Virus record (IMG/VR): IMGVR_UViG_3300037191_001144
Span: 1 to 57,863 of that record
DNA length: 57,863 nucleotides
Source: a virus
Taxonomy: Duplodnaviria; Caudoviricetes
Direction: 5' to 3' (one strand)
Positions 18,871-30,230 of this stretch are shown in pieces. The position numbers and the translations under genes are program-made. Under the pieces are notes generated by a model that did not search any database, had not been told where the DNA came from, and saw nothing but the letters and a program-made list of their open reading frames with translations. Within the stretch, counting starts at the first letter, position 1. Each line of letters starts with the position of its first letter.

Positions 18871-18892
18871 GTAGATTTAATTTAATTTCACC

Positions 18893-18900
18893 CAAAGGTA
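18893..18900 (-). promoter_or_regulatory. -7 promoter element (TACCTTTG) for groEL-groES
   Basis: TAnnTTTG upstream of the AT-rich groEL leader. Confidence 0.6.
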
Positions 18901-18920
18901 CAACACTAAACCTAAATACT

Positions 18921-19116
18921 ACTATGACAGAATGTCGAAAATAACTCCCCCTATATATATATATATAAAACTATTGTGGAGAGTGTAAAAAAAATCCTAC
19001 AAAAGTGGGAACAAATCGACATTTCGACATAATTTCCCTTAACTATCTTATTACTATATCTTTAGACTAAATAAAATCGACATAAAAACGACATAGAAAT
19101 GACAGTTATCGACATA
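18921..19116. repeat. Iteron-like element copy 1 (CGACAT repeats plus (AT)n tract), putative origin
   Basis: Five CGACAT plus one inverted copy and an (AT)n run; same layout as 30041-30226. Confidence 0.6.
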
Positions 19117-19121
19117 ATAAA

Positions 19122-19409
19122 CTAATATCCAGCCCTTCTTCCCCTTCTTGTTACCCTTAACTTAGTCTTAGTCTTGCCACTTCTTCTTACTTTGTCCTTC
19201 TGTTTGACTAATAAGTTTCCGTTAGAATCAAAAACCTTGAATACATTCTTAGTCTTAGACTTACCACCACGGTCAGTTTGAGAAGACTCGTTAACAGTAG
19301 TCTCCCCAGTAGATGTGTTCGTAACCTTATTAGTTTGGGTAACCTTCTTCCTCTTGCCCTTAATCGTGCTAGAAGAATTAGAGCTTACATCGTAGGACTT
19401 ACCGCTCAT
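19122..19409 (-). CDS. Basic S/T/K-rich hypothetical protein
   Basis: Start reassigned to MSGKS (ATGA overlap with upstream stop). Confidence 0.55.
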   Translation of the reverse strand: MSGKSYDVSSNSSSTIKGKRKKVTQTNKVTNTSTGETTVNESSQTDRGGKSKTKNVFKVFDSNGNLLVKQKDKVRRSGKTKTKLRVTRRGRRAGY

Positions 19410-19537
19410 CCCGAACAAGACTCACAGTCCTCAGGAGACTCAGTGCTACATACAGTCTCCCCAGATAAGATCTTGTCGTCCTGCTCCTTTAACTTCTTCT
19501 GATCTAAGAACAGAGGAGCGTCCAGGTCCTTGATCAT
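19406..19537 (-). CDS. 43-aa peptide ending in a CxxC tail (not in ORF track)
   Basis: MIKDLDAPLFLDQKKLKEQDDKILSGETVCSTESPEDCESCSG; ATGA-coupled on both sides. Confidence 0.65.
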   Translation of the reverse strand: MIKDLDAPLFLDQKKLKEQDDKILSGETVCSTESPEDCESCSG

Positions 19538-19716
19538 AAAGGCTTACGCATCTCAGCTAACTGGATGCCCTCAGCAATGCACTCAACCTTGTACTGGTGC
19601 TTGCGGTTCTTACGGACACGAGCAGCCATAGCAATGCCCGTCTCTCCATCAGGTCTGTTGTTTATGAGGCGACCGTCTTGGACAGTCAAGCCTGGTGTGT
19701 AGTTCTTATGTATCAT
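19534..19716 (-). CDS. Hypothetical protein
   Basis: 60 aa; -7 box TATCTTTG (19721-19728) 4 nt before ATG. Confidence 0.65.
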   Translation of the reverse strand: MIHKNYTPGLTVQDGRLINNRPDGETGIAMAARVRKNRKHQYKVECIAEGIQLAEMRKPL

Positions 19717-20181
19717 GTAGCAAAGATAGTGAAAATTTTTTTACGAGATATCTGGAAGTTGAGGGTTCTAGGTGATGTGACAGGCTGTGTGCCTCATATG
19801 AAAGTCGATGTTGATTCCGATGGGGGTCTTCGGTTTCAGAATTTCTTGTGGATTGTTTCAGGATTCCGCATAGCCTCGCGCCCTCTGTCTATGGTCTCTG
19901 TCTGTGCGCCCTATGTACGCTACGTCTCACGCATCCCCGAGCATTAAGTGCAGTAGTAATGGTATAGGTCTCACGCCCCGTATCCCGCCCCCTGAAGGGG
20001 GTAAACAAGGGAGGAAGGTGTACACAACCTCTCCTTAACACCTCCCCGACCCCTCACCTCACAAAATACTTTCAGGTAAGACATCTCTCTGTATCCCCTA
20101 TCTATGCTCATTCTACGCACATTGAATAAACTATTTTCGAAAGTTTCTTGCACTCATAGCATCAATACCCATTCTGTGAAC

Positions 20182-20189
20182 TATATTTG
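20182..20189 (+). promoter_or_regulatory. Putative early promoter -7 element (TATATTTG)
   Basis: TAnnTTTG immediately upstream of the first + strand early gene; -33 element unclear. Confidence 0.55.
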
Positions 20190-20217
20190 CACAAACGTTA
20201 AACAAATCATATACACC

Positions 20218-20289
20218 ATGCCTATACTACTACTCATCACTACCATCTTCACAATAATCGCATTCATTATTTCATTCATCACAGATTAA
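20218..20289 (+). CDS. 23-aa membrane peptide
   Basis: MPILLLITTIFTIIAFIISFITD after an A/C-rich leader. Confidence 0.4.
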   Translation: MPILLLITTIFTIIAFIISFITD

Positions 20290-20300
20290 TACACAACACA

Positions 20301-20552
20301 ATGACTATAACTGCCCACAACAAGATGCACCAGAGCAATGTCAACAAGGCTACGCAATGGTTAGAGAAGCACAACACATTCAATGCAGAGCGAGACCTAA
20401 TCGAGGATAGCTTAGAAGGTTATCCTGACGAGGATACTGCTTGGAGACGCATCAACAAGAAGTGCGAGGATTCATACGACAAGTACTTGTGCTATATGGA
20501 TGAGCTACCAAAGCGTGAGCAAGACCAAATAACCAAATCAGAATTATACTGA
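20301..20552 (+). CDS. Early hypothetical protein
   Basis: 83 aa, AATACACAACACA-ATG leader. Confidence 0.7.
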   Translation: MTITAHNKMHQSNVNKATQWLEKHNTFNAERDLIEDSLEGYPDEDTAWRRINKKCEDSYDKYLCYMDELPKREQDQITKSELY

Positions 20553-20602
20553 GTAACACTGACGAGTCCTTACTGGACGAAACGTCGAGAGACGTCTGTT
20601 AC
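20553..20602 (+). ncRNA. Type I hammerhead ribozyme HH1 (cleaves after GUC, C20596)
   Basis: GUAACA-CUGACGA-GUCC(UUACU)GGAC-GAAA-CGUC(GAGA)GACG-UC-UGUUAC: full catalytic core and three stems. Confidence 0.93.
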
Positions 20603-20626
20603 ATTTATTCATCAATACACAACACC

Positions 20627-20875
20627 ATGAACAAATCCGAAGAACTAAACTACAAACTGCATCTAGACCGAATTGACGTGTGCTACAAGGTAGACGCAAA
20701 AGGAAGACCATATTACCAAGAACTTTTCCACGAGATGATATCTTGCATTATTGATGCGGAGCTATCAACTACTGAGGAGAACAGAGAGCTAAGGAAAGCG
20801 CTTAAGGTTGCTACTATTCAGATGAAAATTCAAGACCTTGAGAACGAACTTGACACCTTAACAATCACTGAGTAA
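20627..20875 (+). CDS. Early hypothetical protein flanked by HH1 and HH2
   Basis: 82 aa; stop TAA lies inside HH2 stem I. Confidence 0.7.
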   Translation: MNKSEELNYKLHLDRIDVCYKVDAKGRPYYQELFHEMISCIIDAELSTTEENRELRKALKVATIQMKIQDLENELDTLTITE

Positions 20876-20921
20876 CACTGACGAGACTTCAATAGTCGAA
20901 ACGCTGAGAAGCGTCTGTTAC
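20872..20921 (+). ncRNA. Type I hammerhead ribozyme HH2 (cleaves after GUC, C20915)
   Basis: GUAACA-CUGACGA-GACU(UCAAU)AGUC-GAAA-CGCU(GAGA)AGCG-UC-UGUUAC; stems II and III covary with HH1. Confidence 0.93.
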
Positions 20922-20948
20922 AAATTTTATTCACTAATACACAATACA

Positions 20949-21173
20949 ATGAACAATTTTAGAGTAGTAAGAACGAGAATGATTGACATCGATAATGTAC
21001 ACATAGACATACACTTTGGAAGTGATGACAAAATAGTCGCATCAGGTCAGTACAACATCCGTACCAATTGGGCACACGTTACTCGTGAGGAGGAGTATGA
21101 ACGTATGCTTGGCGATGATTGGGAGGACCAGATGCAAGAGGCCATCGAAGAGAGGACGATAGAGATAGGTTAA
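20949..21173 (+). CDS. Early hypothetical protein
   Basis: 74 aa after the conserved leader. Confidence 0.7.
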   Translation: MNNFRVVRTRMIDIDNVHIDIHFGSDDKIVASGQYNIRTNWAHVTREEEYERMLGDDWEDQMQEAIEERTIEIG

Positions 21174-21179
21174 CCAACA

Positions 21180-21226
21180 AGCGGAGTCAGTGCGTGACTC
21201 GAACGGATTCGCTCCCGTTCTCCGCT
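21180..21226 (+). ncRNA. 47-nt three-way-junction, tRNA-elbow-like RNA, copy B1
   Basis: AGCGGA-GUCA(GUGCG)UGAC-UC-GAACGG(AUUCGCUC)CCGUUC-UCCGCU; covaries with B2 and B3. Confidence 0.8.
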
Positions 21227-21255
21227 CTAATTATTATTCACTAATACCCAATACA

Positions 21256-21438
21256 ATGAACGATTTAATTACAATTCAAGGCTTACAAGATGCTCTCAAC
21301 CTTTCAATGAGAGAAGTGAAAGACCTAAGAGATAAGTTAGAGATTACGGAAAAGTATCTCCATAACTATGTTATCCAAGCAGAAAGGACCATAGACACCC
21401 TGATGAAGCCTTATAGCGAGGCAGTACAAACCAAGTAA
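21256..21438 (+). CDS. Early hypothetical coiled-coil protein
   Basis: Start reassigned to ATG 21256 after the conserved leader; stop inside HH3 stem I. Confidence 0.7.
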   Translation: MNDLITIQGLQDALNLSMREVKDLRDKLEITEKYLHNYVIQAERTIDTLMKPYSEAVQTK

Positions 21439-21484
21439 CACTGATGAGACCTGAATGGTCGAAACGTCGTGAGACGTATGTTAC
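21435..21484 (+). ncRNA. Type I hammerhead ribozyme HH3 (cleaves after GUA, A21478)
   Basis: GUAACA-CUGAUGA-GACC(UGAAU)GGUC-GAAA-CGUC(GUGA)GACG-UA-UGUUAC. Confidence 0.93.
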
Positions 21485-21510
21485 AAATTTTATTCACTAA
21501 TCTAATACCT

Positions 21511-21750
21511 ATGACATTACAAGACAAGATTGAACACACAACCGCGATAGCTGATGCTATCCAGCGCAGAGAGGACTACTACACCCTTGAGATTTTAATG
21601 GGTGAAAGCCACCCTTTAGGTTATAGTCCTCAGACATCAGAACTGAGACAAATCGAACTACCTGCACCACAGATTGCAGGTACGATGGTCCAGCGCAGAA
21701 GCTACGCGATGGGCAAAGCTATGGACATCCTTAACACCCTATCACTATGA
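21511..21750 (+). CDS. Early hypothetical protein
   Basis: Start reassigned to MTLQDK after the conserved leader. Confidence 0.65.
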   Translation: MTLQDKIEHTTAIADAIQRREDYYTLEILMGESHPLGYSPQTSELRQIELPAPQIAGTMVQRRSYAMGKAMDILNTLSL

Positions 21751-22022
21751 AAAAACTTTATAGTATACATAGAAAGTGTCACGCCATCTACGAAGAGTTT
21801 GGAGGATACGACTACAACGATAAGATGATTTATCAGCTACGCGGACTCGACGCTGACATCGAAGAGTGTAGCGAGTGTATGGAAGAGTTGTCCAGCCAAA
21901 GAGAAAGAGAGGTACTATACAAAGGGGCTCTTGCTAACGCAGACGCTACTCTCCTATGGTTTGAATGGGTGAAGAAGATGATGGTCCTTAAATCAAAAGA
22001 GCCATCTGCCATCTTTGGTTAG
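21747..22022 (+). CDS. Early hypothetical protein
   Basis: 91 aa, ATGA-coupled. Confidence 0.65.
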   Translation: MKKLYSIHRKCHAIYEEFGGYDYNDKMIYQLRGLDADIEECSECMEELSSQREREVLYKGALANADATLLWFEWVKKMMVLKSKEPSAIFG

Positions 22023-22029
22023 ACCTACA

Positions 22030-22076
22030 AGCGGAGGTAGTGCGTACCTCGAGATGATTCGCCTCGTCTCTCCGCT
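22030..22076 (+). ncRNA. 47-nt three-way-junction RNA, copy B2
   Basis: AGCGGA-GGUA(GUGCG)UACC-UC-GAGAUG(AUUCGCCU)CGUCUC-UCCGCU. Confidence 0.8.
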
Positions 22077-22105
22077 CTAATTATTATTCACTAATCTAAT
22101 ACAAT

Positions 22106-22261
22106 ATGAATTTAGGATACATAGAACACAGAAAGGGCAAGTACTCTGTCCTCGTAGACATTATAGATTTAGGGCCTTTCGGAATGTCGCCTTGCTTCAG
22201 CAAAGGCTTTGACACACGAACAGAGGCAGAAGAACACTCGAACAAATTAAATTTAAAATGA
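22106..22261 (+). CDS. 51-aa early protein (not in ORF track)
   Basis: MNLGYIEHRKGKYSV... directly after the conserved leader. Confidence 0.6.
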   Translation: MNLGYIEHRKGKYSVLVDIIDLGPFGMSPCFSKGFDTRTEAEEHSNKLNLK

Positions 22262-22410
22262 TGACTACACAAGAGAAATTCGAATACACAAGAGGTTTGG
22301 AGAAGCAAATCGAAAAGCAAGAAGCATTAATCGAACACCTTAGAAAGACCATACTTGCTTACTCAGAAAGAATGGAAACTATAACTAAAATCAAAAACCT
22401 ATTAAAATGA
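22258..22410 (+). CDS. 50-aa early protein (not in ORF track)
   Basis: MMTTQEKFEYTRG...; ATGA-coupled on both sides. Confidence 0.55.
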   Translation: MMTTQEKFEYTRGLEKQIEKQEALIEHLRKTILAYSERMETITKIKNLLK

Positions 22411-22646
22411 AATACAAATCAGTATACGCAGTACACCACCTAAGCCATCTACTTGGCGATTGTGAGACCGATCTATTTTTCTCAGAGGCTGACGCGAGAG
22501 CGTTCTTTCTTAAGCTAATGATGGAGGTCGAAGACTCTTCAGACGAGGTTGAGATACTAACCGACGAAGCAGATGAATTGTACTACTGCAATGAGTCTTC
22601 AGGAGAGTACATCAGAATCGTAATAGAACAAATTAAAATCAAATAA
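22407..22646 (+). CDS. Early acidic hypothetical protein
   Basis: 79 aa, ATGA-coupled. Confidence 0.65.
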   Translation: MKYKSVYAVHHLSHLLGDCETDLFFSEADARAFFLKLMMEVEDSSDEVEILTDEADELYYCNESSGEYIRIVIEQIKIK

Positions 22647-22652
22647 AACACA

Positions 22653-22740
22653 TACACGTAATCTGTGGTGGTTCGCAGATGGATTGTTACTCTTTACGCA
22701 TAGAGAATAGCAATGGGGTTCGACTCCCCTACGTGTACCA
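22653..22740 (+). ncRNA. 8/4 tRNA-like RNA C1, ending in CCA
   Basis: Acceptor UACACGUA/UACGUGUA, T arm GGGG(UUCGACU)CCCC, 7-bp D-like arm with GG loop, elongated anticodon-like arm. Confidence 0.7.
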
Positions 22741-22766
22741 ATTAATATTCACTAATACATAATACA

Positions 22767-23054
22767 ATGACAGATAATTTAGGACAATACACGCTCCGCG
22801 AAGTGGAGAAGTTATTTAAGAAGTTAGACCGAATGAATATCGCAGTCCAGAAGAACTACGGGTACGACTTCGAGCACGGAGACAGACCCGCTTTGTGGAT
22901 TTGGACCGAGGGCATTACGGAGGAGACAGAGATGCATATAGACTACTATGCCAATCACGGATGCCCGAGTGAGAAACTTGCTCAGGTCTTATATGACGCT
23001 GAGTCTTATGCTGAGTGGGATAACTCTGCGGTATGTTGTATTTACAAAGTTTAA
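22767..23054 (+). CDS. Early hypothetical protein
   Basis: 95 aa after the conserved leader. Confidence 0.7.
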   Translation: MTDNLGQYTLREVEKLFKKLDRMNIAVQKNYGYDFEHGDRPALWIWTEGITEETEMHIDYYANHGCPSEKLAQVLYDAESYAEWDNSAVCCIYKV

Positions 23055-23059
23055 TCAGT

Positions 23060-23275
23060 ATGGAAGAGAAATTTAGCGACTGCTGTGGAGTCTCCTCTAG
23101 CGAGGAGGATATCCTACGCGATACTTGTCCTGACTGCAAGGAACATTGCGAGTTTAATAACGTAGCACACACGTGCGTCAATTGTGGAGACACAGAAGTA
23201 GAGGTTGAGGGTCAACCTTGCTCAATAGAATGCCACCGAGAGTATTGGGGCGAAATGAACAGAGATGAAAGATAA
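23060..23275 (+). CDS. Small Cys-rich, zinc-finger-like protein
   Basis: SDCC, CPDCKEHC, CVNC, CSIEC; start reassigned to MEEKF. Confidence 0.65.
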   Translation: MEEKFSDCCGVSSSEEDILRDTCPDCKEHCEFNNVAHTCVNCGDTEVEVEGQPCSIECHREYWGEMNRDER

Positions 23276-23483
23276 CAATATGGAATTAATGGACAGAATA
23301 ATAGCCTATGAAGAGGGCAACATCGACGAAGCTGGTATCCTTCAGCTATTTGCGGAGTTAATCAAGTCAGGAATGGCTTGGTCTCTTCAGGGTCACTACG
23401 GCAGAACTGCGAAAGCCTTAATAGACGCAGAATACATAAGTGAGGATGGACAAACCATCTTCTACCAAGACATAGTACAATGA
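23265..23483 (+). CDS. Small phage protein (LIKSGMAWSLQGHYGRTA motif)
   Basis: 72 aa with a distinctive motif seen in many phages (recollection). Confidence 0.7.
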   Translation: MKDNNMELMDRIIAYEEGNIDEAGILQLFAELIKSGMAWSLQGHYGRTAKALIDAEYISEDGQTIFYQDIVQ

Positions 23484-23638
23484 ATCAAAATACAAGATCT
23501 TTCAGGTACTGCATAACGACCCTCGCAATATGGGCAGTAGCATTCTACCTTATCCTTTGCCTAGTCTCTTGCTCGGCAACCAAGTCAGCCAACGTATACG
23601 GCAATCCAAATACTGATAGGTGCGAGGCATATTACTAA
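23480..23638 (+). CDS. 52-aa putative lipoprotein (not in ORF track)
   Basis: Hydrophobic stretch followed by lipobox LVSC; ATGA-coupled. Confidence 0.55.
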   Translation: MNQNTRSFRYCITTLAIWAVAFYLILCLVSCSATKSANVYGNPNTDRCEAYY

Positions 23639-23645
23639 CCCAACA

Positions 23646-23692
23646 AGCAGTGGTAGTGCGTACCGAGAAGAGATTCGCCCCTCTTCACTGCT
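23646..23692 (+). ncRNA. 47-nt three-way-junction RNA, copy B3
   Basis: AGCAGU-GGUA(GUGCG)UACC-GA-GAAGAG(AUUCGCCC)CUCUUC-ACUGCU; compensatory changes in P1 and P3. Confidence 0.8.
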
Positions 23693-23782
23693 CAATTGTT
23701 AATAACTTTGATAATATAATTAGGAATTAGACAAAGTACGAACTATCTTTACACTATCTATAAACATTTAATCTAATACATT

Positions 23783-24007
23783 ATGATACAAGTAACAAGT
23801 AAACTATTCGGTAGCCTTGAGTTACCACTTACCTTAGCTGAGTTTAGCAAAGACCAAGACTCTTGGGGGGCATTGAGTAAGCACATAGTATACCACATAT
23901 ATACTGACGAAGCTATTCGAGTACTACTCTACGCAGTAAAAGATGGCGAGACAGACACAAGCCAAGAGTTAGAGATTATAACCGAAAGAAATATGATATT
24001 CAGATGA
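23783..24007 (+). CDS. Hypothetical protein
   Basis: 74 aa with AATCTAATACATT-ATG leader. Confidence 0.65.
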   Translation: MIQVTSKLFGSLELPLTLAEFSKDQDSWGALSKHIVYHIYTDEAIRVLLYAVKDGETDTSQELEIITERNMIFR

Positions 24008-24138
24008 AGGTTACAATACACACAGACAAGCCTGAGTATGCGGTAGCTAAGAAGGTATGGGATGACATATTCAACAACGACACATTGATATACGACAAGT
24101 TCGACGAGTACTTCTACCACGAATTTTATAAAAACTAA
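24004..24138 (+). CDS. 44-aa hypothetical protein (not in ORF track)
   Basis: MKVTIHTDKPEYAV...; ATGA-coupled. Confidence 0.5.
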   Translation: MKVTIHTDKPEYAVAKKVWDDIFNNDTLIYDKFDEYFYHEFYKN

Positions 24139-24142
24139 TCAG

Positions 24143-24391
24143 ATGAACTACAACAAAAGATACACGATGGAGGAGAACGGGGTCACATACGACTGCGAGG
24201 TAAACGTAAACACCGAAGAAAGCTACGGAAGTTTTGAAATCTACGACGTAGACGATTCAGATGGGTACTACGAGGCGGGTGGCTTATGGTTTGAGGGAAA
24301 CGTACTCAGAGACTACGATGGAGTATACGAACTACCTGAGTGCGTAAAGGCTACGCTCACACAATGGAACTTTAATTTAGAAGAGATATAA
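24143..24391 (+). CDS. Acidic hypothetical protein (GGLWF...DYDGVYELP)
   Basis: 82-aa ORF. Confidence 0.7.
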   Translation: MNYNKRYTMEENGVTYDCEVNVNTEESYGSFEIYDVDDSDGYYEAGGLWFEGNVLRDYDGVYELPECVKATLTQWNFNLEEI

Positions 24392-24396
24392 CAACA

Positions 24397-24506
24397 TACA
24401 CGTAGCATTGTAGGTTTGCAAAAACTTCAGGATACAATGTAGGCGTTCCCTCAATAGGTTTTCTGAATTTCCTATACGGGTGCGAGGTTCGACTCCTCTA
24501 CGTGTA
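24397..24506 (+). ncRNA. 8/4 tRNA-like RNA C2 with enlarged interior
   Basis: Same acceptor as C1 (UACACGUA/UACGUGUA); T arm GAGG(UUCGACU)CCUC; internal stems GCAUUGUA/UACAAUGU and a GCAA tetraloop hairpin. Confidence 0.68.
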
Positions 24507-24529
24507 CTCATTAATTAAACTCAAATAAA

Positions 24530-24817
24530 ATGAAAGACACAAACCAAGTACAAGAAGCCCTTGAAAGCAAGGCAAAGAAAGAACTGCAAAAGATTGTAGA
24601 CGAGTTTACGGAGGCGCTTACCAAACTAGATAGTACATACCGTTCAGCGACGTCGTATGTTATGAAAGAAAGTCGTAGCACAGAAGCCAAAGTGTTTACT
24701 TATGTCACACCTTCTAACTTAGACCATATGCTTCACGAGATGCTCGTAGACGCTTACCTAAAACCTATGGTACACAAAAAAACACAAGAGTTATTAAACA
24801 AACTTGAATTAATATAA
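24530..24817 (+). CDS. Hypothetical protein
   Basis: 95-aa ORF with AT-rich leader. Confidence 0.65.
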   Translation: MKDTNQVQEALESKAKKELQKIVDEFTEALTKLDSTYRSATSYVMKESRSTEAKVFTYVTPSNLDHMLHEMLVDAYLKPMVHKKTQELLNKLELI

Positions 24818-24821
24818 CATC

Positions 24822-25016
24822 ATGAAGAAGAAAGAAGAATTTACTTTTGAAGTCGTCCTCAAGGACGCAATGGAAAACACTAAGTACTACCAAGATCGAT
24901 TGATACAGAACGAAGACGAAAAGATGGAGAGATACTATCAGTCTAAGTATATGGAGGCTCTGTATTATCAGAAAGGATTAGTCGTAGGCCAGAAACTACT
25001 AAGCAAAGAGTCATGA
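24822..25016 (+). CDS. Hypothetical protein
   Basis: 64-aa ORF in operon. Confidence 0.6.
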   Translation: MKKKEEFTFEVVLKDAMENTKYYQDRLIQNEDEKMERYYQSKYMEALYYQKGLVVGQKLLSKES

Positions 25017-25303
25017 ATGATAAAGACAACAAAATAATTGCCCTATTCATGGGGTTGAAACCCCACCATCAGGATGCGGGTTACCTAATAGACGAGAGCA
25101 AAGATGAAGGCTACGAAGCCATACACGAATCGTGTTTCTTATACGACTCGTCATGGGATTGGTTAGTCCCCGTAGTACAGAAGATTGAGGAAGAGTGCGG
25201 GGGTGTACCTAAGCAATTGCTTGACGTCAGTTTCTATGATGAGATAGGAGATGTATACCAAGCAGTAGTAGAATTTATTAAAACATACAACGATGAAAAA
25301 TAA
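25013..25303 (+). CDS. SWDWLxPV-family paralog 1
   Basis: NKIIALFMG...YDSSWDWLVPVVQKI...AVVEFIK. Confidence 0.75.
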   Translation: MNDKDNKIIALFMGLKPHHQDAGYLIDESKDEGYEAIHESCFLYDSSWDWLVPVVQKIEEECGGVPKQLLDVSFYDEIGDVYQAVVEFIKTYNDEK

Positions 25304-25502
25304 TAAACTAATAGGAGACTTTATGGACATCCGAAGTACGGGGTTGTCTGTATATAAAGAGAGCGCATACAAATACCACGAGTCATGGGATTGGTTGATG
25401 CCCGTAGTTGAGAGGATAGGTGATGAGAATCTTTTATCTATTGACATAGACGTAGCATACGATAGAGTAGTAGAATTTATTAAAGAATATAACAATGAAT
25501 AG
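25293..25502 (+). CDS. SWDWLxPV-family paralog 2
   Basis: NKLIGDFM...YHESWDWLMPVVERI...VVEFIK. Confidence 0.75.
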   Translation: MKNNKLIGDFMDIRSTGLSVYKESAYKYHESWDWLMPVVERIGDENLLSIDIDVAYDRVVEFIKEYNNE

Positions 25503-25788
25503 AGAAATATATAACATCATTTTAATACACACCGCACGGACGTGGGAAAGGATACGTATAACACGACCTCATCAGGAGATGCCATTCGATAACATAGGTT
25601 CAGCGGAGCAGATAGAAAACATCGCGTCTACCATATACAACGGCGACATCATACAAGGTTTTCTTAACGCGCCTGATGATCTATCTAAGGATAGATGGTG
25701 GATAGACAAAACAATAGATGGGATGTCCGATGTGTACATAGAGAATGAGGCAGAACGAATTATTAACAACGTATACCTACGACTATGA
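25495..25788 (+). CDS. Hypothetical protein
   Basis: 97 aa, overlapping operon organisation. Confidence 0.6.
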   Translation: MNREIYNIILIHTARTWERIRITRPHQEMPFDNIGSAEQIENIASTIYNGDIIQGFLNAPDDLSKDRWWIDKTIDGMSDVYIENEAERIINNVYLRL

Positions 25789-26009
25789 AAGATAAAATAT
25801 ACATAGACAACTCACGATTCATGGAGTTAATAGATGAGATTGTAACGCAGATAACTGAGGCTGAATTTAAGGAGCAAACAAGTAAGTTAGCTGAAAATGG
25901 AGACTGGGTGTTACAAGGAGAAGCACAAGACTTCTATAACGAGAAGTACAAGGAGTACGAAAACCTATTTAATAACATAGCAAATATACTTAGCGATGCA
26001 AGACAATAA
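25785..26009 (+). CDS. Hypothetical protein
   Basis: 74 aa, ATGA-coupled. Confidence 0.6.
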   Translation: MKDKIYIDNSRFMELIDEIVTQITEAEFKEQTSKLAENGDWVLQGEAQDFYNEKYKEYENLFNNIANILSDARQ

Positions 26010-26096
26010 TTTAAGATACTGCCACGTGTTTACGGCAAAACCTACATCCGTTAACCAGCGAGGTTTGGTGGTGGTATCTTTCAAACCAATAACATC

Positions 26097-26369
26097 ATGA
26101 AAGATAACAAACTAATAGCAGAATTTATGGGAGGCGAAAAACCTGAACGAACATCAGACCTTCGCCACTTTATAGAAGAACATCATAACTACCACGACTC
26201 TTGGGATTGGTTGATGCCCGTAATAGAGAAGATCGAAAATAACGGACTCGATCCACACGGAATGATTGACAACTCTTTAAGGAAGAACAATCAAAAGAGA
26301 TGGCGTTCAATCGAGGACACATATAACGTAGCAGTATACTTAATAAACATATACAACAATGAAAGATAA
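26097..26369 (+). CDS. SWDWLxPV-family paralog 3
   Basis: MKDNKLIAEFMG...YHDSWDWLMPVIEKI. Confidence 0.75.
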   Translation: MKDNKLIAEFMGGEKPERTSDLRHFIEEHHNYHDSWDWLMPVIEKIENNGLDPHGMIDNSLRKNNQKRWRSIEDTYNVAVYLINIYNNER

Positions 26370-26670
26370 CAAACTAATAGCAGAATTTATGGGGTACAAC
26401 TACGACAAGTGTATAGCGTCAACAGACAAGTCTACACCCCTCGATATGCAAGGCGAATACCTTACGCCTGATGGAGACTCGGTATCCGAGAGTGAATTAG
26501 AATTTCACGAGTCGTGGGACTGGCTCATGCCAGTACTTAAAAAGATTAAACTTCAGATACACCCCAACAACATGGGTATGTGGCGAAAGGTAACTCAACC
26601 TATAGGGTACGACATCCACGAGGTACACCAAGAAGCAGTAGAGTTTATCAAAAGATATAGCAATGAGTAG
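26359..26670 (+). CDS. SWDWLxPV-family paralog 4
   Basis: MKDNKLIAEFMG...FHESWDWLMPVLKKI; first 34 nt identical to paralog 3. Confidence 0.75.
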   Translation: MKDNKLIAEFMGYNYDKCIASTDKSTPLDMQGEYLTPDGDSVSESELEFHESWDWLMPVLKKIKLQIHPNNMGMWRKVTQPIGYDIHEVHQEAVEFIKRYSNE

Positions 26671-26778
26671 TAAACGTGTACCAATTTGGTACACAAAGAA
26701 TACATGAGCAGTATAATGAAAACGATTGAGCAGTAAGTGAATGAACTCACCAAATAGCATAACGAAAAGAGAATTAAA

Positions 26779-27522
26779 ATGGAAATTACAAATTTTAAAA
26801 CACACGAAACTAAAAACTATGAGATGTTTGAGTTTCTTGATACAAACAGAGAGCCTAGTCAAAGAATTATTAACAACTTACTTAAAAGCATTAAGCAAAT
26901 CGGTGTGCAAATACCTATAATCGTTAATGAAGATAAATACATTGTCGATGGACAGCATAGGTTTTGGGCTTTAAGGCAACTTGGATATGTAGTGCCATAT
27001 ATTGTAAGCAAAGCTTGGAAAAATGACCAGCATACGATAGCTATAAACAACACTAGTTGTAAGTGGACGGCTATGGATTTCGCAAATTATGCATCTGAAA
27101 ACGGAAATCTTGACGTTCAAGAAGCAATAAAGATTGCTAAAGGTTGGAGAAAAGACTCTAAGAATAGATTAAGTTTAATAAGTGGGTTAGAAATACTAAT
27201 GAAGGGTAGATCACGCAATGGGTTATTATCAAAACTAAAAAACATGACATACAGAATAGACTGTAAGTCGGGGGCGGAAGTTTTTGATACGCTTGTTGTT
27301 ATGAACGAACACCAAATGAAAGCAAGTCCTTTTTCTCAGAAAATAACTAGGTCGATTAAAATATTGCACCACGACAAGGGTGGGTTAAACAATGATGCAA
27401 TTAATCTCATGTGTCAAAAGAACTATATACAAAATTATAGTAAAGAAAATGATCAGTTAGAATATTTTATAGACATATATAACGAGGCTTTAAGTAAGGG
27501 GACACTAGGAGTGAAAGGATAA
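26779..27522 (+). CDS. ParB/Srx N-terminal domain protein
   Basis: SIKQIGVQIPIIV...IVDGQHRFWAL motif. Confidence 0.75.
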   Translation: MEITNFKTHETKNYEMFEFLDTNREPSQRIINNLLKSIKQIGVQIPIIVNEDKYIVDGQHRFWALRQLGYVVPYIVSKAWKNDQHTIAINNTSCKWTAMDFANYASENGNLDVQEAIKIAKGWRKDSKNRLSLISGLEILMKGRSRNGLLSKLKNMTYRIDCKSGAEVFDTLVVMNEHQMKASPFSQKITRSIKILHHDKGGLNNDAINLMCQKNYIQNYSKENDQLEYFIDIYNEALSKGTLGVKG

Positions 27523-27532
27523 ATAAACGACC

Positions 27533-27617
27533 ATAGTAAGGCACGACTTGGAGGATGCTGGGTGTAGCGATTGTTGGTTCAGGAGTTACACACATGGGTT
27601 CGATTCCCACTTACTAT
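27533..27617 (+). ncRNA. 8/4 tRNA-like RNA C3
   Basis: Acceptor AUAGUAAG/CUUACUAU, T arm UGGG(UUCGAUU)CCCA, internal stem GUGUAGC/GUUACAC. Confidence 0.65.
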
Positions 27618-27636
27618 CTAAAAATAAATTAAACAT

Positions 27637-27670
27637 TTTGTCGAAACTTATTAAAGGTTTTGTACCTTTG
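27637..27670 (+). promoter_or_regulatory. Bacteroidota sigma70 promoter (-33 TTTG, -7 TACCTTTG)
   Basis: Both elements present (22-nt spacer) upstream of the recombination operon. Confidence 0.6.
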
Positions 27671-27687
27671 TTTTAAAATTAAATTAA

Positions 27688-27993
27688 ATGAAAAAGAAAA
27701 TATTTATGCAGTACGCAGACGCAGTAGCCGAGCAGTTCCATCTAAGTCTAGATCAAATGTTTGAGAAGTCTAAGCGGAGAGAGTGTGTTGATGCTAGACA
27801 GATGCTATACTACCTATGTATGGAGAGACCTATACGGGTCAGCTACATACAAAGATTTATGGAGGAAGAGGGTCATACTATATGTCACTCAACTATTATC
27901 CATGGGTACAAACGAGCAAAGAAAATTATAGAAAGTGATAAAGACTTCTGTAATGTAGCAAACAATATACAAGAAGGAATATGTACACCTTAG
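27688..27993 (+). CDS. DnaA C-terminal (domain IV)-like HTH protein
   Basis: VAEQF.LS.DQM...SKRRECVDARQMLYYLC...HSTIIHGYKR. Confidence 0.7.
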   Translation: MKKKIFMQYADAVAEQFHLSLDQMFEKSKRRECVDARQMLYYLCMERPIRVSYIQRFMEEEGHTICHSTIIHGYKRAKKIIESDKDFCNVANNIQEGICTP

Positions 27994-28376
27994 AGGATGT
28001 GTTTGAACAAGCAGAAAATGATAACTACTCCACCTCCTTACCTCTACAAAACGGGAAGTCTTACATACGACCCTCTGTTATAATAAAAAAATTCCCCACA
28101 CACATAGACATACTCAACGTCGGAAAGGGGGGAGCATACTACAAGGCTATAACAGAGTCAGAGTTAGAGTACTTCCTCCAGCATGGGTGGGTAAAGGGAT
28201 CGGTTAACGTTAGCCTAAACAACTGCACACACAAGCTACGACTAGTAGAACTTGGGATTAAGAAGGAGGTTAACACTAGGAAGAATGATAAATACATTAA
28301 AGGATTAAAGAATAAGAGAGATAACATACTAAAAAAGTACGCAGTTTTAAAAATTAAATTAAATAAAATTATATGA
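27981..28376 (+). CDS. Hypothetical protein
   Basis: 131-aa ORF in operon. Confidence 0.65.
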   Translation: MYTLEDVFEQAENDNYSTSLPLQNGKSYIRPSVIIKKFPTHIDILNVGKGGAYYKAITESELEYFLQHGWVKGSVNVSLNNCTHKLRLVELGIKKEVNTRKNDKYIKGLKNKRDNILKKYAVLKIKLNKII

Positions 28377-28948
28377 AAGATATTTTCAAGGACTTGTCAT
28401 CCATTAACATCAACGACAAAGTAGAGAAGAAAGGTCAGCACAAGTACCTATCATGGGCACACGCATGGACACTAGCCAAGCAGAAGTTCCCTGAGATTCA
28501 GCGAGTAGTATACGAGTCTGAGCATACGGGACTGAACTACTTTACCGATGGTAACTCAGCCTATGTAAAGGTGGGCATTACGATCGAAGGGTTAGAGCAT
28601 ATAGACTACCTACCCGTAATGGACTTTCGAAACAACGCTCTAGCGTTAGATAAGGTCACGTCTATGGAGGTAAACAAAACTATTCAGAGGTCTACAACGA
28701 AAGCTATTGCTATGCATGGCCTAGGACTAAGCCTATGGAGTGGGGAGGATATAGTACAGACAACCACAGAGGAAGCCCCTAAGAAGGAGGAGAAGATAGA
28801 GCTTATTATTAACACAGATAACTGGGCTAATGTCTTAAAGTATATCGCCTCTAACAAGGAGCTAGGTCTACCTAAAATTATTAAGAACCTAGAGACTAAG
28901 TACAATCTAAAGGCTACTATTAAGAAGGAACTCTCTAAGCATGTTTGA
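28373..28948 (+). CDS. Single-strand annealing protein, DUF1071/Sak3-like
   Basis: EKKGQHKYLSWAHAW...LPVMDFRN...NKTIQRSTTKAIAMHGLGLSLWSGED. Confidence 0.78.
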   Translation: MKDIFKDLSSININDKVEKKGQHKYLSWAHAWTLAKQKFPEIQRVVYESEHTGLNYFTDGNSAYVKVGITIEGLEHIDYLPVMDFRNNALALDKVTSMEVNKTIQRSTTKAIAMHGLGLSLWSGEDIVQTTTEEAPKKEEKIELIINTDNWANVLKYIASNKELGLPKIIKNLETKYNLKATIKKELSKHV

Positions 28949-29669
28949 TGTAGAGAAACTAAAGGACGATGCCCACTACTACGGAGCATACGGGAGGAAG
29001 TACCTCTCCAACTCAGACATAGGCGCACTCCTTACACGACCTACTGAGTATGGAAAACCTAGTGAGCAGACTAAACCTATGCTTATAGGTAGCTACTTAC
29101 ATACCCACATCCTAGAGCCTGATAAGGTAAAGAACTTTGAGGTCATAGACGTAGCTAGTCGTAACACTAAGGTATATAAGGAGGCTCTCGCCAACAGCAC
29201 AGAGAAGATGATCTTACTTAACAACGAGGCAGAGGAGGTTAAGTCCTTAGTAAAAGTTATCAAGGGAAACCTACCTTTCTATGAGGCTATATACAATGAG
29301 TCCAATCAGTTTGAGGTTCCAGCCGTACAGAATATACATGGCGAACTTTGGAAGGGTAAGGCGGACGTAGTGTGTAAGGATATGCTCATAGATTTAAAGA
29401 CTACCTCTAACATGAAAGACTTTAAGTGGTCAGCCAAGAAGTACAACTACGATAGTCAGTGCTATATATACCAGTCCCTATTTGGGAAACCTTTAGTGTT
29501 CTATGTAATAGATAAGGTAAGCCATCAGCTAGGGATCTTCCACGCCTCGCAAGACTTCCTCATGAGGGGGAAGGCTAAGGTAGAGGAGGCGGTAGAGGTA
29601 TACCAAAAGTTTTTCAAGGAGGGTAGCCCAGAAGATATAGAAACATATCTCCACACAGAAATTTTATAG
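28941..29669 (+). CDS. PD-(D/E)XK exonuclease (RecE/ExoVIII, DUF3799-like)
   Basis: LSNSDI...GSYLHTHILEP...KGKAD...IDLKTT...YNYDSQCYIY. Confidence 0.8.
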   Translation: MFDVEKLKDDAHYYGAYGRKYLSNSDIGALLTRPTEYGKPSEQTKPMLIGSYLHTHILEPDKVKNFEVIDVASRNTKVYKEALANSTEKMILLNNEAEEVKSLVKVIKGNLPFYEAIYNESNQFEVPAVQNIHGELWKGKADVVCKDMLIDLKTTSNMKDFKWSAKKYNYDSQCYIYQSLFGKPLVFYVIDKVSHQLGIFHASQDFLMRGKAKVEEAVEVYQKFFKEGSPEDIETYLHTEIL

Positions 29670-29721
29670 GATAGTGTATGGTCCAAACACTATTTATTTT
29701 TAACGGACAAAATAATTAATC

Positions 29722-29985
29722 ATGTCAAACGACACAAAAGAAAAAGTATTCCTCGATGGATTACTATTTAAACCACCTAATAACGAGGCTCCAGAGTGGG
29801 TACTAAGCAAGGTATCTATGAAAGTAGACGAGATGATCACGTCATTAAAGAACCATGAGTCTAATGGTTGGGTAAACCTCGAGCTAAAAAAAGGGCAGAA
29901 GGGAAACTACTACATGGAGGTAGACACATGGAAGCCTGACCCATCTAAGAGGTCACAACCTAAAGAAGAGAAGGCAGACTTCTAA
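29722..29985 (+). CDS. Putative ssDNA-binding protein
   Basis: Follows SSAP and exonuclease; aromatic beta core, short acidic/aromatic C-terminus (..EEKADF). Confidence 0.45.
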   Translation: MSNDTKEKVFLDGLLFKPPNNEAPEWVLSKVSMKVDEMITSLKNHESNGWVNLELKKGQKGNYYMEVDTWKPDPSKRSQPKEEKADF

Positions 29986-30001
29986 GAACCAGTCCTAGAG
30001 T

Positions 30002-30034
30002 AAGGGGGTGGGGGAAACCCTACCCCTTTATTAT
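30002..30034 (+). terminator. Intrinsic terminator
   Basis: AAGGGGGTGGGG-GAAA-CCCTACCCCTTT hairpin followed by an AT tract. Confidence 0.6.
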
Positions 30035-30040
30035 GCTCTA

Positions 30041-30226
30041 GACTATGTCGAATGACAGAAATACCTCCTCATATATATATATATAGAAAATATATTTACA
30101 GAGAGAGAAGTTTTTTACTAGAAACATGACTACTTTTCGACATATCGACATAAAAGAATACAAAGAATAGAGTATCAGCTCTTTAACTAAAATAAAATCG
30201 ACATAAAATCGACATAACCCTGACAT
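30041..30226. repeat. Iteron-like element copy 2, directly upstream of the primase-helicase
   Basis: Four TCGACAT, one TGACAT, one inverted copy and an (AT)n run; same layout as 18921-19116. Confidence 0.62.
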
Positions 30227-30230
30227 ATAA

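What the first reader, a model, noticed from the sequence alone, without database searches (positions are those of the whole stretch)
22653..27620. Three non-canonical 8/4 tRNA-like RNAs (C1-C3)
Each has an 8-bp acceptor-like stem, a 4-bp T stem and a canonical 7-nt UUCGA(C/U)U T loop (again 12 bp), followed by C; C1 ends in CCA. The interiors differ widely and show no standard 5-bp/7-nt anticodon arm. C1 and C2 share the acceptor sequence exactly. An 8/4 fold is known from allo-tRNAs and SelC* tRNA-Cys, but those keep an anticodon arm. These look like processing signals or decoys, for example against anticodon-nuclease defences, rather than decoding tRNAs.
Basis: partly seen in the sequence, partly recalled or inferred. 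Interest (0 to 1): 0.72.

Follow-up and report, generated by a model that had tools for sequence, protein, structure and literature searches.

The report
Phage tRNA-like mRNA punctuation elements
Three conserved tRNA-shaped RNAs that lack an anticodon sit between early genes of a marine flavobacterial phage, in slots that related phages fill with self-cutting hammerhead ribozymes, so they are most likely cutting marks for the host's tRNA-processing enzymes.

Summary
C1 (22653-22737), C2 (24397-24506) and C3 (27533-27617), all on the + strand, each have a perfect 8-bp acceptor helix, a 4-bp T stem and a UUCGAYU T loop. That is 3 in the window against a mean of 0.04 in 200 shuffles. ARAGORN and Rfam (gathering threshold) call no tRNA. 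None has an anticodon arm. For C1 a long 13-pair hairpin is backed by covariation, and a canonical anticodon stem is not.

The elements are conserved: 93-97% identical to a relative whose flanking genes are 65-80% identical or unrelated. They belong to a family found on more than 60 marine contigs. The family keeps a near-fixed minihelix and has about ten different interiors.

Context points to function. The window's early operon has 11 long spacers: 3 hold type I hammerhead ribozymes, 3 hold a 47-nt mini tRNA-like repeat (D2) and 3 hold C1-C3. In relatives, homologous gene junctions carry a hammerhead, D2 or C1 interchangeably.

Best reading (confidence 0.55): these are anticodon-less tRNA "top halves" that host RNase P and RNase Z use to cut the polycistronic early mRNA. 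The excised RNAs may have a further role. No RNA-end data exist. A role as decoys for anticodon nucleases is not supported.

The parts
22653..22737 (+). C1, 85-nt tRNA-like RNA. Acceptor 22653-60 with 22730-37; linker AU; 6-bp D stem 22663-68 with 22673-78 and loop UGGU; linker AUGG 22679-82; long arm 3 at 22683-22714 (13 pairs, apex UUACGCAUA); T stem 22715-18 with 22726-29; T loop 22719-25.
   Evidence: MFE -33.8 kcal/mol, z -3.9; 26 homologues, 97.5% of cells paired, 13 of 31 pairs with changes on both sides, 0 of 500 shuffles as high.
24397..24506 (+). C2, 110-nt tRNA-like RNA. Same acceptor as C1 (24397-404 with 24499-506); arm 2 at 24405-40 follows with no linker; linker AGGC 24441-44; arm 3 at 24445-83 with a 12-nt loop; T stem 24484-87 with 24495-98; T loop 24488-94.
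   Evidence: z -2.3; 10 homologues, 34 pairs kept, 1 compensatory; CM R1 35 bits, E 2e-5.
27533..27617 (+). C3, 85-nt tRNA-like RNA. Acceptor 27533-40 with 27610-17; 3-bp arm 2 with a 12-nt GG-containing loop at 27541-58; arm 3 at 27559-94, with tandem G.A pairs and an invariant apex UGUUGGUUCAGG; T stem 27595-98 with 27606-09; T loop 27599-605.
   Evidence: z -0.7 on its own; 4 homologues, 95.4% paired, 2 pairs changed on both sides, not significant; one DNA contig matches only 27533-27622, with unrelated flanks on both sides.
20553..20602 (+). Type I hammerhead ribozyme 1, in the equivalent intergenic slot.
   Evidence: Rfam Hammerhead_1, 31.0 bits, E 6.5e-5, gathering score 34.
20872..20921 (+). 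Type I hammerhead ribozyme 2.
   Evidence: 27.6 bits, E 8.6e-4.
21435..21484 (+). Type I hammerhead ribozyme 3 (CUGAUGAG...CGAAAC...GUA).
   Evidence: (family D4).
21180..21226 (+). D2 copy 1: 47-nt mini tRNA-like element with a 7-bp closing helix and two hairpins (loops GUGCG and AUUCGCYY).
   Evidence: (family D2).
22030..22076 (+). D2 copy 2.
23646..23692 (+). D2 copy 3 (closing helix AGCAGUG/CACUGCU, compensatory relative to copies 1 and 2).
22738..22769 (+). Conserved A/U-rich leader (..UUAAUAUUCACUAAUACAUAAUACAAUG) shared by the genes downstream of hammerheads, D2 and C1.
   Evidence: families D7-D11.

Best explanation
C1-C3 are transcribed as parts of a long early polycistronic RNA of a roughly 58-kb phage of marine Flavobacteriia. 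Each folds into the 'top half' of a tRNA. This is a 12-bp acceptor/T coaxial helix split 8/4, with a canonical T loop and a GG-containing loop or linker that could form the elbow. The anticodon arm is replaced by a long, class-specific hairpin.

Inferred mechanism: host RNase P measures from the elbow and cuts at the 5' end of the acceptor helix. A 3' tRNA-processing activity (RNase Z or equivalent) cuts after the nucleotide that follows the helix. The operon is thereby cut into separate mRNAs. The downstream mRNA starts about 15-40 nt before its ATG, as it does when a hammerhead ribozyme sits in that slot. C3 would do the same at the 3' end of the unit.

What is shown: the structures, their conservation and covariation, their positions, and their interchangeability with hammerheads and with D2.

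What is inferred: transcription, cleavage by RNase P and RNase Z, and any later life of the excised 85-110-nt RNA (CCA addition, stability, a role of its own).
For: 1. Real, selected RNA structures.
- For C1, 26 distinct homologues give 97.5% paired cells. 13 of 31 pairs change on both sides (5 of 6 D-stem pairs, 7 of 13 arm-3 pairs), 0 of 500 shuffles are as high, and slid controls give 37-53% paired.
- Many G.U pairs fix the strand as +.
- Against relative L040, C1 is 96.9%, C2 92.9% and C3 94.4% identical, while neighbouring genes are 65-80% identical or have no match.

2. What stays constant across the family is the part RNase P reads.
- 76 loci (not de-replicated) share the 8/4 minihelix and T loop, with about ten unrelated interiors of 82-144 nt.
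- RNase P binds the T-stem-loop/acceptor stack and measures a fixed distance from the elbow rather than reading sequence (PMC4919913, passages read).

3. Same slot as ribozymes.
- Of the window's 11 early-operon spacers longer than 25 nt, 3 hold type I hammerheads, 3 hold D2 and 3 hold C1-C3. The other junctions overlap or are 11 nt or less.
- Distance from the element's 3' end, or from the hammerhead cut, to the next ATG: hammerhead 18-37 nt (29 of 29); D2 26-40 (20 of 24); C1 23-40 (24 of 28); C2-like 14-35 (28 of 35).
- The upstream stop codon mostly lies 0-12 nt before the element.

4. Interchangeability at homologous junctions.
- Hammerhead/D2: two downstream gene families (59.5% and 65.8% protein identity) and one upstream family.
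- C1/D2: three downstream families (for example L098 C1 against window D2 at 23646, protein 93% identical over 74 aa) and one upstream family.
- C1/hammerhead: one upstream family (L077 hammerhead against six C1 loci, 39% identity, E 6e-15).

5. All elements of a locus lie on one strand, in arrays with the order C1, C2, C3 kept.
Against: - There are no RNA-end data. The two metatranscriptome runs are assembled contigs, cannot show ends, and are not shown to be transcripts.
- The interiors are better conserved than a mere RNase P handle needs. Examples are the C1 apex ACGCAUA, the C3 apex UGUUGGUUCAGG and the AGGY linker. This hints at a further or different function.
- The acceptor sequence UACACGUA is nearly invariant in C1 and C2-like members. 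That includes all 5 C1 members found with a pattern that did not specify it. Recognition by structure alone does not explain this.
- C3 lies 59-75 nt from the next ATG. Some C1 homologues have no ATG nearby (distances of 68-118 nt).
- D2 lacks a canonical T loop.
- The family is patchy. Covariance model R1 finds it in 1 of 57 related loci besides the window, and a cultured Elemovirus has none. It is therefore dispensable.
- That a hammerhead in this slot serves mRNA processing is itself an inference.
Confidence: 0.55

Rival explanations
1. C1-C3 are genes for stable small tRNA-like RNAs with a trans function of their own. Examples would be sponges or decoys for host proteins that bind the acceptor/T half of tRNA (CCA-adding enzyme, EF-Tu, synthetases, toxins acting on the acceptor end), or scaffolds that display class-specific arms. 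Their intergenic position would simply be where non-coding genes fit. This can coexist with the processing role.
For: Interior sequence is conserved beyond structure: apices are invariant in C1 (24 of 26) and in C3 (4 of 4). Arms are swapped as modules between classes while the minihelix is kept. Six of 27 C1 variants encode N73-CCA in register. One contig holds C3 alone, with unrelated flanks.
Against: This does not explain why hammerheads and D2 replace C1 at homologous junctions, nor the fixed distance to the next ATG. No antisense targets of the apical loops exist in the phage genome. There is no anticodon loop, so they cannot be decoys for anticodon nucleases.
Confidence: 0.2
2. The elements act mainly at the DNA level, as conserved linkers at which early-gene cassettes recombine. 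On this reading the RNA folds are secondary.
For: Mosaic breakpoints coincide with elements. Examples are a contig joining 22709 to 24484 (C1 5' part to C2 T arm), a contig that keeps only C3, and L098, which goes from C1 to the gene that follows D2 in the window. C1 and C2 share a 30-nt 3' segment.
Against: Compensatory changes and abundant G.U pairs show selection on a + strand RNA fold. Hammerhead catalytic cores are kept. Recombination at repeats is an expected by-product of any repeated element.
Confidence: 0.1
3. C-type elements (and/or D2) are a new class of self-cleaving ribozyme that needs no host enzyme.
For: They alternate with hammerheads at the same junctions, which is the kind of association that led to earlier ribozyme classes (recalled). 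Unpaired nucleotides are conserved (AGGY linker; D2 loops GUGCG and AUUCGC; D2 5' flank CCAACA). The helix sequence is invariant.
Against: The canonical T loop and the 12-bp acceptor/T stack are fully explained by tRNA mimicry. There is no Rfam ribozyme hit at E up to 10 over C1-C3 or over two D2 copies. Members with other acceptor sequences exist (C3, mini40).
Confidence: 0.06
4. They are decoding tRNAs of unusual shape (8/4 allo-tRNA-like, perhaps with an intron or an odd anticodon loop).
For: The 8/4 branch and the 6-bp D stem with a 4-nt loop in C1 resemble tRNA-Sec and allo-tRNA. ARAGORN at lowered thresholds forces calls of Asn-GUU, Leu and others.
Against: For C1 the canonical anticodon stem is 71.5% paired, has 0 compensatory changes and is no better than slid controls. 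The 'anticodon' bases covary as part of a helix. Arm 3 has 10-14 pairs, and loops of 4, 6, 8 or 12 nt. ARAGORN gives nothing at default settings or with introns. All scores are below Rfam gathering thresholds.
Confidence: 0.02

Closest known systems
(8/4) allo-tRNAs, selC* tRNA-Cys and tRNA-Sec (Mukai et al. 2017, PMC5389517; abstract and passages read)
   Same: A 12-bp acceptor/T branch split 8/4. C1 also has the 6-bp D stem with a 4-nt D loop and scores 31.8 bits on Rfam tRNA-Sec. 8/4 tRNAs are reported from phages.
   Different: Those RNAs keep an anticodon arm and decode. C1-C3 have none. There is no long variable arm beside an anticodon arm.
mascRNA / MEN-beta tRNA-like structures of MALAT1 and NEAT1 (recalled, not read here)
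   Same: A tRNA-like fold embedded in a long transcript that does not decode. It is cut by RNase P at its 5' side and RNase Z at its 3' side, which defines the ends of the flanking RNA. This is the proposed working model.
   Different: Eukaryotic nuclear lncRNAs. No sequence relation. A single element rather than an array between ORFs.
Mitochondrial tRNA punctuation model (for example PMC8601606; abstract seen in the listing)
   Same: Polycistronic transcripts are cut into mRNAs by excising tRNA-shaped units between genes.
   Different: There the units are functional tRNAs. Here they lack anticodons and alternate with hammerhead ribozymes.
tmRNA tRNA-like domain and plant-virus 3' tRNA-like structures (PMC3929946, PMC7749636; abstracts seen in the listing)
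   Same: An upper-half tRNA mimic (acceptor plus T arm) without an anticodon. The C3 T arm matches the tmRNA model locally (12.1 bits).
   Different: No mRNA-like tag region, no G3.U70, no conserved CCA, and an internal rather than 3'-terminal position.
Hammerhead ribozymes (type I) in the same operon; theta (HDV-like) ribozymes next to phage tRNAs (PMC10879173; title and abstract start seen)
   Same: Small RNA-cleavage elements in phage intergenic spacers. Hammerheads occupy slots interchangeable with C1 and D2.
   Different: C1-C3 have no ribozyme core. Theta ribozymes trim real tRNAs.
Phage T4 stable RNAs C and D, and PeSL cassettes of T4-type phages (both recalled, not read here)
   Same: T4 RNAs C and D are tRNA-like RNAs of unknown function made with tRNA-processing enzymes. 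PeSLs are repeated regulatory motifs that flank small early ORFs and mediate cassette shuffling.
   Different: No sequence relation was tested. PeSLs are promoter plus stem-loop, not tRNA mimics.

Membership tests
canonical tRNA | Cloverleaf with a 5-bp anticodon stem and a 7-nt loop, detected by tRNA finders | tested here: not met
   ARAGORN finds 0 genes in the window, and none at default settings or with introns on the three elements. For C1 the canonical stem is 71.5% paired with 0 compensatory changes, against 95% paired and 7 covarying pairs for the long hairpin.
canonical tRNA | Acceptor/T coaxial branch of 12 bp with a UUCRANY T loop | tested here: met
   8 + 4 bp and a UUCGAYU loop in all three. 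Kept in 26 C1, 10 C2 and 4 C3 homologues.
tRNA-Sec / allo-tRNA (8/4) | Rfam tRNA-Sec gathering score | tested here: not met
   C1 scores 31.8 bits against 47. C2 and C3 have no hit at E up to 10.
tRNA-Sec / allo-tRNA (8/4) | Anticodon arm plus long variable arm | tested here: not met
   There is only one hairpin between the D arm and the T arm.
tmRNA | tRNA-like domain plus tag reading frame; Rfam or ARAGORN tmRNA call | tested here: not met
   ARAGORN finds no tmRNA. The Rfam tmRNA match covers only the 15-nt T arm of C3.
known self-cleaving ribozymes (hammerhead, twister, twister-sister, pistol, hatchet, HDV-like) | Match to the Rfam covariance model | tested here: not met
   No such hit over 22300-27900 at E up to 10.
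RNase P / RNase Z substrate (works-like claim) | Cleavage at the acceptor 5' end and after N73 | not testable with these tools
   The only RNA data are assembled contigs. The structural prerequisites are present (12-bp stack, T loop, GG for an elbow).

The most novel reading that the evidence does not exclude
Marine Flavobacteriia phages carry a modular family of anticodon-less 8/4 tRNA 'top halves': a near-fixed minihelix with swappable arms. Together with a 47-nt mini version (D2), these are functionally interchangeable with hammerhead ribozymes as punctuation of early polycistronic mRNA. This would be a phage counterpart of mitochondrial tRNA punctuation. The excised, possibly CCA-tailed RNAs would in addition act on the host through their class-specific arms.
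Probability: 0.25. Interest if true: 0.85.

Novelty: new variant of a known kind. Interest (0 to 1): 0.72.

Why it matters
If the model holds, it has four consequences.

- It would show that phages can hand operon segmentation to the host's tRNA-processing enzymes by using tRNA mimics that never decode.
- It would show that a protein-independent ribozyme and an RNase P handle are evolutionarily exchangeable solutions at the same junction.
- It gives a concrete, testable role for bacterial and phage hammerheads, whose biology is largely unknown (recalled).
- It offers natural, compact processing parts and tRNA-scaffold designs.

The sharp element boundaries also mark the units in which early (probably host-takeover) genes are shuffled. 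The literature searches (listings and abstracts only) turned up no description of such elements. Supplementary files could not be opened and may list related motifs.

Tried and rejected
- **Similarity to deposited phages.** No DNA similarity of 22000-28000 to 50,697 deposited phages.
- **Cultured relatives.** Flavobacterium phage elemoE (45 kb of 59.7 kb) and part of MW202828 have no hammerhead or tRNA-like element under my scanners, only a tRNA-Met.
- **Host origin.** A scan of one genome for each of 185,579 species with the C1/C2 3' half gave 5 stretches. None is a host tRNA. One is the phage contig binned in a MAG. The minihelix is therefore not a copy of a host tRNA 3' half (attP-like).
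- **RNA evidence.** Two metatranscriptome runs hold 8-9% of the sampled words. Laid down, they are contigs of diverged relatives, with no table of ends and no proof of transcription.
- **Antisense targets.** The reverse complements of the C1, C2 and C3 apical loops occur nowhere else in the window at up to 2 mismatches for the 16-17-mers, and only at chance-like levels for the shorter ones.
- **Canonical anticodon arm for C1.** ARAGORN at ps80 calls Asn-GUU. Covariation rejects this stem.
- **D2 as a known ribozyme.** By hand the helices do not fit an HDV-like or pistol fold, and there is no Rfam hit.
- **Terminator after C3.** The hairpin AAAGGU/ACCUUU plus GUUUU (27653-27674) is not called by the scan, and relatives differ there.
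- **Promoters and terminators.** Sigma-70-type promoter matches are not enriched in 18800-30300 (23 found against 30.2 expected). The scan does not model Bacteroidota promoters.
- **Phage-encoded RNA enzymes.** PHROGs and Pfam on 26 larger ORFs show no RNA ligase, CCA-adding enzyme or RNase.
- **Earlier findings.** The store was not open.

Full report
**What the window is.** It is a complete IMG/VR virus record of 57,863 nt, estimated 94% complete. It encodes a portal, a large terminase, GroEL/GroES, an endolysin, a 1592-aa virion protein and a 3707-aa ORF. Its replication module has a Sak-type annealing protein, a PDDEXK nuclease, a BT4734-like/PriCT primase-helicase and an SNF2 helicase. The primase is 70% identical to an uncultured podovirus and 43% identical, over its N-terminal third, to Flavobacterium phages of the genus Elemovirus. 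Other hits are phages of Nonlabens, Polaribacter, Cellulophaga and Maribacter. The host is therefore a member of the Flavobacteriia. Run metadata and related contigs are marine.

**The observation.** C1 (22653-22737), C2 (24397-24506) and C3 (27533-27617) lie on the + strand between + strand ORFs. Each has a perfect 8-bp acceptor-like helix. Its 3' strand abuts a 4-bp stem that closes a 7-nt UUCGAYU loop. A scan for exactly this arrangement finds 3 on the + strand and none on the - strand. In 200 dinucleotide shuffles the mean is 0.04 and the maximum 1. ARAGORN finds no tRNA or tmRNA anywhere in the window. Rfam gives no match at gathering thresholds. At permissive thresholds C1 aligns end to end with tRNA-Sec (31.8 bits, gathering score 47, E 0.002), thanks to its 8-bp acceptor, its 6-bp D stem and its 4-nt D loop. 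C2 gives nothing. C3 gives only its T arm. On its own, C1 folds much better than shuffles (z -3.9), C2 moderately (z -2.3) and C3 not significantly (z -0.7).

**Homologues and structure of C1.** The primase brought in 80 of 243 related viral loci. Only one of them, L040, carries C1, C2 and C3, in the same order. Pattern scans added viral contigs and 83 metagenome stretches. A pattern that left the acceptor unspecified recovered 11 stretches. Five were C1-like and all five had the acceptor UACACGUA. The other six look like ordinary tRNAs.

For C1, 26 distinct sequences support the fold:
- 97.5% of cells are paired, and 13 of 31 pairs change on both sides.
- No shuffle out of 500 is as high, and slid controls give 37-53% paired.
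- The D stem has 5 of 6 pairs with double changes.
- The 13-pair middle arm has 7 pairs with double changes.
- The T stem has one.
- The acceptor does not vary.

The only canonical-looking alternative is a 5-bp stem that presents UUGUUAC as an anticodon loop, which ARAGORN reports at lowered thresholds. It is 71.5% paired, has no compensatory change and does no better than slid controls. Its 'anticodon' bases covary as helix partners. C1 therefore has no anticodon arm.

**Structure of C2 and C3.** Both have few and close homologues. Their folds are kept (C2 all 34 predicted pairs, C3 95.4% of cells), but covariation is thin.

**A family.** My script pulled out 76 loci with the C1/C2 minihelix. 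These are not de-replicated: the window is nearly the same as L140, L040 as L085 and L107, and L153 as L184. About 17 further pattern matches had no 5' partner, and most of those lie in a conserved protein-coding gene. I dropped them.

The interiors fall into C1 (82-88 nt), C2 (110 nt, with a 94-nt form lacking an inserted hairpin) and other classes of 84, 90, 93, 94, 99, 120-123 and 144 nt. Constrained folding gives one plan for the non-C1 classes:
- the 8-bp acceptor runs straight into arm 2;
- a 4-nt linker AGGY follows;
- arm 3 (about 10 pairs, often with a 12-nt loop) runs straight into the 4-bp T stem.

C1 has AU and AUGG linkers. C3 has the same plan with UGGG or UGAG. Arms recur in different combinations. 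One arm 3, for example, occurs with two different arm 2s. The constant part is thus the acceptor/T minihelix, the T loop and a GG-containing linker or loop. This is the upper half of a tRNA.

**Context.** The early region (about 20.1-27.7 kb) is a run of some 30 small + strand ORFs that mostly overlap or lie within 11 nt of each other. It has eleven spacers longer than 25 nt:
- Three hold type I hammerhead ribozymes. Two score 31.0 and 27.6 bits on Rfam Hammerhead_1, just under its gathering score of 34, with E 6.5e-5 and 8.6e-4. The third has the full core.
- Three hold a 47-nt repeat, D2. It has a 7-bp closing helix and two hairpins, all covarying among 16 distinct copies.
- Three hold C1-C3.
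- One holds another conserved structured element (26013-26085).
- One holds a palindromic hairpin.

Hammerheads, D2 and C1 are followed by the same A/U-rich leader (families D7-D11). The distance from the hammerhead cut site, or from the 3' end of the tRNA-like helix, to the next ATG is alike: 18-37 nt for hammerheads, 26-40 for D2, 23-40 for C1 and 14-35 for C2-like elements, in most cases. Upstream stop codons lie a few nucleotides before the element, or inside the hammerhead's stem I. My scanner finds 24 + strand type I hammerheads in the window plus 15 related loci, all upstream of the primase.

**Interchangeability.** I clustered the proteins encoded just downstream or upstream of each element. 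Several families have different elements at the same junction in different genomes:
- Two downstream families have a hammerhead in the window/L140 (and in L153 or L143) but D2 in L040/L107 (and L143). Protein identities are 59.5% and 65.8%.
- Three downstream families have D2 in some genomes and C1 in others (93%, 67% and 75% identity).
- One upstream family is followed by a hammerhead in L077 and by C1 in six loci (39% identity, E 6e-15).
- One upstream family is followed by D2, C1 or a C2-like element.
- A 40-nt mini tRNA-like element in six loci alternates with a hammerhead in L067.

The elements are the best-conserved segments of the region, and mosaic breakpoints fall at them.

**Interpretation.** A hammerhead cuts its own transcript. 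Elements that replace it at the same junction, at the same distance from the start codon, most simply do the same job by other means. What C1-C3 and their relatives conserve is what RNase P reads: the T-stem-loop/acceptor stack, measured from the elbow and independent of sequence (PMC4919913, passages read). RNase Z and the CCA-adding enzyme use the same measure (same paper). I therefore rate RNase P/Z-dependent punctuation of the early polycistronic RNA as the best explanation, at confidence 0.55.

No step beyond structure, conservation, position and interchangeability is shown. The strong conservation of apical sequences, and of the acceptor sequence itself, suggests that the excised RNAs, or their recognition, involve something more. 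I give a stand-alone small-RNA function 0.2, and the two readings can coexist. DNA-level cassette recombination (0.1) is probably a real by-product. I give a new self-cleaving class 0.06, more plausible for D2 than for C1-C3. I give decoding tRNAs 0.02.

**Comparison with what is known.** The 8/4 split matches allo-tRNAs and related species (PMC5389517), but those decode. Functionally the nearest analogues are the mascRNA-type tRNA-like structures and mitochondrial tRNA punctuation. Structurally the nearest are the tmRNA tRNA-like domain and the plant-virus tRNA-like structures. Six literature searches (listings and abstracts only) found no report of anticodon-less tRNA mimics alternating with hammerheads in phage operons. 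Supplements were closed. I class the finding as a new variant of a known kind.

Noticed in passing
window 20553-20602, 20872-20921, 21435-21484 (+): Three type I hammerhead ribozymes between early genes. The same type occurs in 15 of the related loci examined, always on the gene strand upstream of the primase.
   Followed up: yes
window 21180-21226, 22030-22076, 23646-23692 (+): D2, a 47-nt repeat with a covarying 7-bp closing helix, two covarying hairpins, invariant loops GYGCG and AUUCGC, and a conserved 5' flank CCAACA. It has no Rfam match, it replaces hammerheads at homologous junctions, and it could be a minimal RNase P substrate or a new ribozyme.
   Followed up: partly
window 26013-26085 (+); L040 6587-6650: Another structured element. 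The outer stem of 11-13 bp covaries completely between the window and L040, while the 42-nt interior (…ACGGCAAAACCU.CAU.CGUUAA.CAGCGAGGUUUG) is conserved and can form a pseudoknot. Function unknown.
   Followed up: partly
window 26672-26697 (+): A perfect 9-bp palindromic hairpin, GUGUACCAA-U-UUGGUACAC. Its 5' arm repeats the 3' end of C1 (ACGUGUACCAAU), so it may be a remnant of a C1-type element.
   Followed up: no
window 25013-25303, 25293-25502, 26097-26369, 26359-26670 (+): Four paralogous small ORFs sharing an ...ESWDWLMPV... core and similar starts (repeat families D1, D3, D5).
   Followed up: no
window 19010-19104 and 30123-30236: Clusters of short direct repeats (AAATCGACAT / TCGACATA) at both borders of the early and replication regions. 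These are candidate promoter, operator or origin iterons.
   Followed up: no
L021 1235-1274, L023, L056, L063-L065; L094 (- strand, 617-674 in reverse-complement coordinates): Still smaller tRNA-like elements. One is 40 nt (6-bp acceptor, 11-nt linker, 5-bp T arm GGAGG/UUCGAUU/CCUCC). Another is 58 nt with an 8-bp acceptor, lying about 150 nt upstream of a C1 homologue.
   Followed up: partly
metagenome loci L108, L116, L117, L122, L123, L174, L176 and others: Arms of the tRNA-like family recombine as modules. The same arm 3 (GAAGUAGUGGAUGAUUCAAUUCCUAUUACUUC) is found with a 17-nt arm 2 and with a 56-nt arm 2.
   Followed up: partly
window 36675-47798 (-): A 3707-aa ORF next to virion genes. 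A similar giant structural protein is annotated in Elemovirus. I did not test whether it is an N4-like virion RNA polymerase.
   Followed up: no
Read laying, loose end before window 21434 in runs X19 and X20: In a relative, the hammerhead at this junction is directly preceded by ...AGUGGGGGUUCAAACCCCCACUC. This is a T-arm-like hairpin plus acceptor-like strand, so a tRNA or tRNA-like element and a hammerhead may sit in tandem.
   Followed up: no
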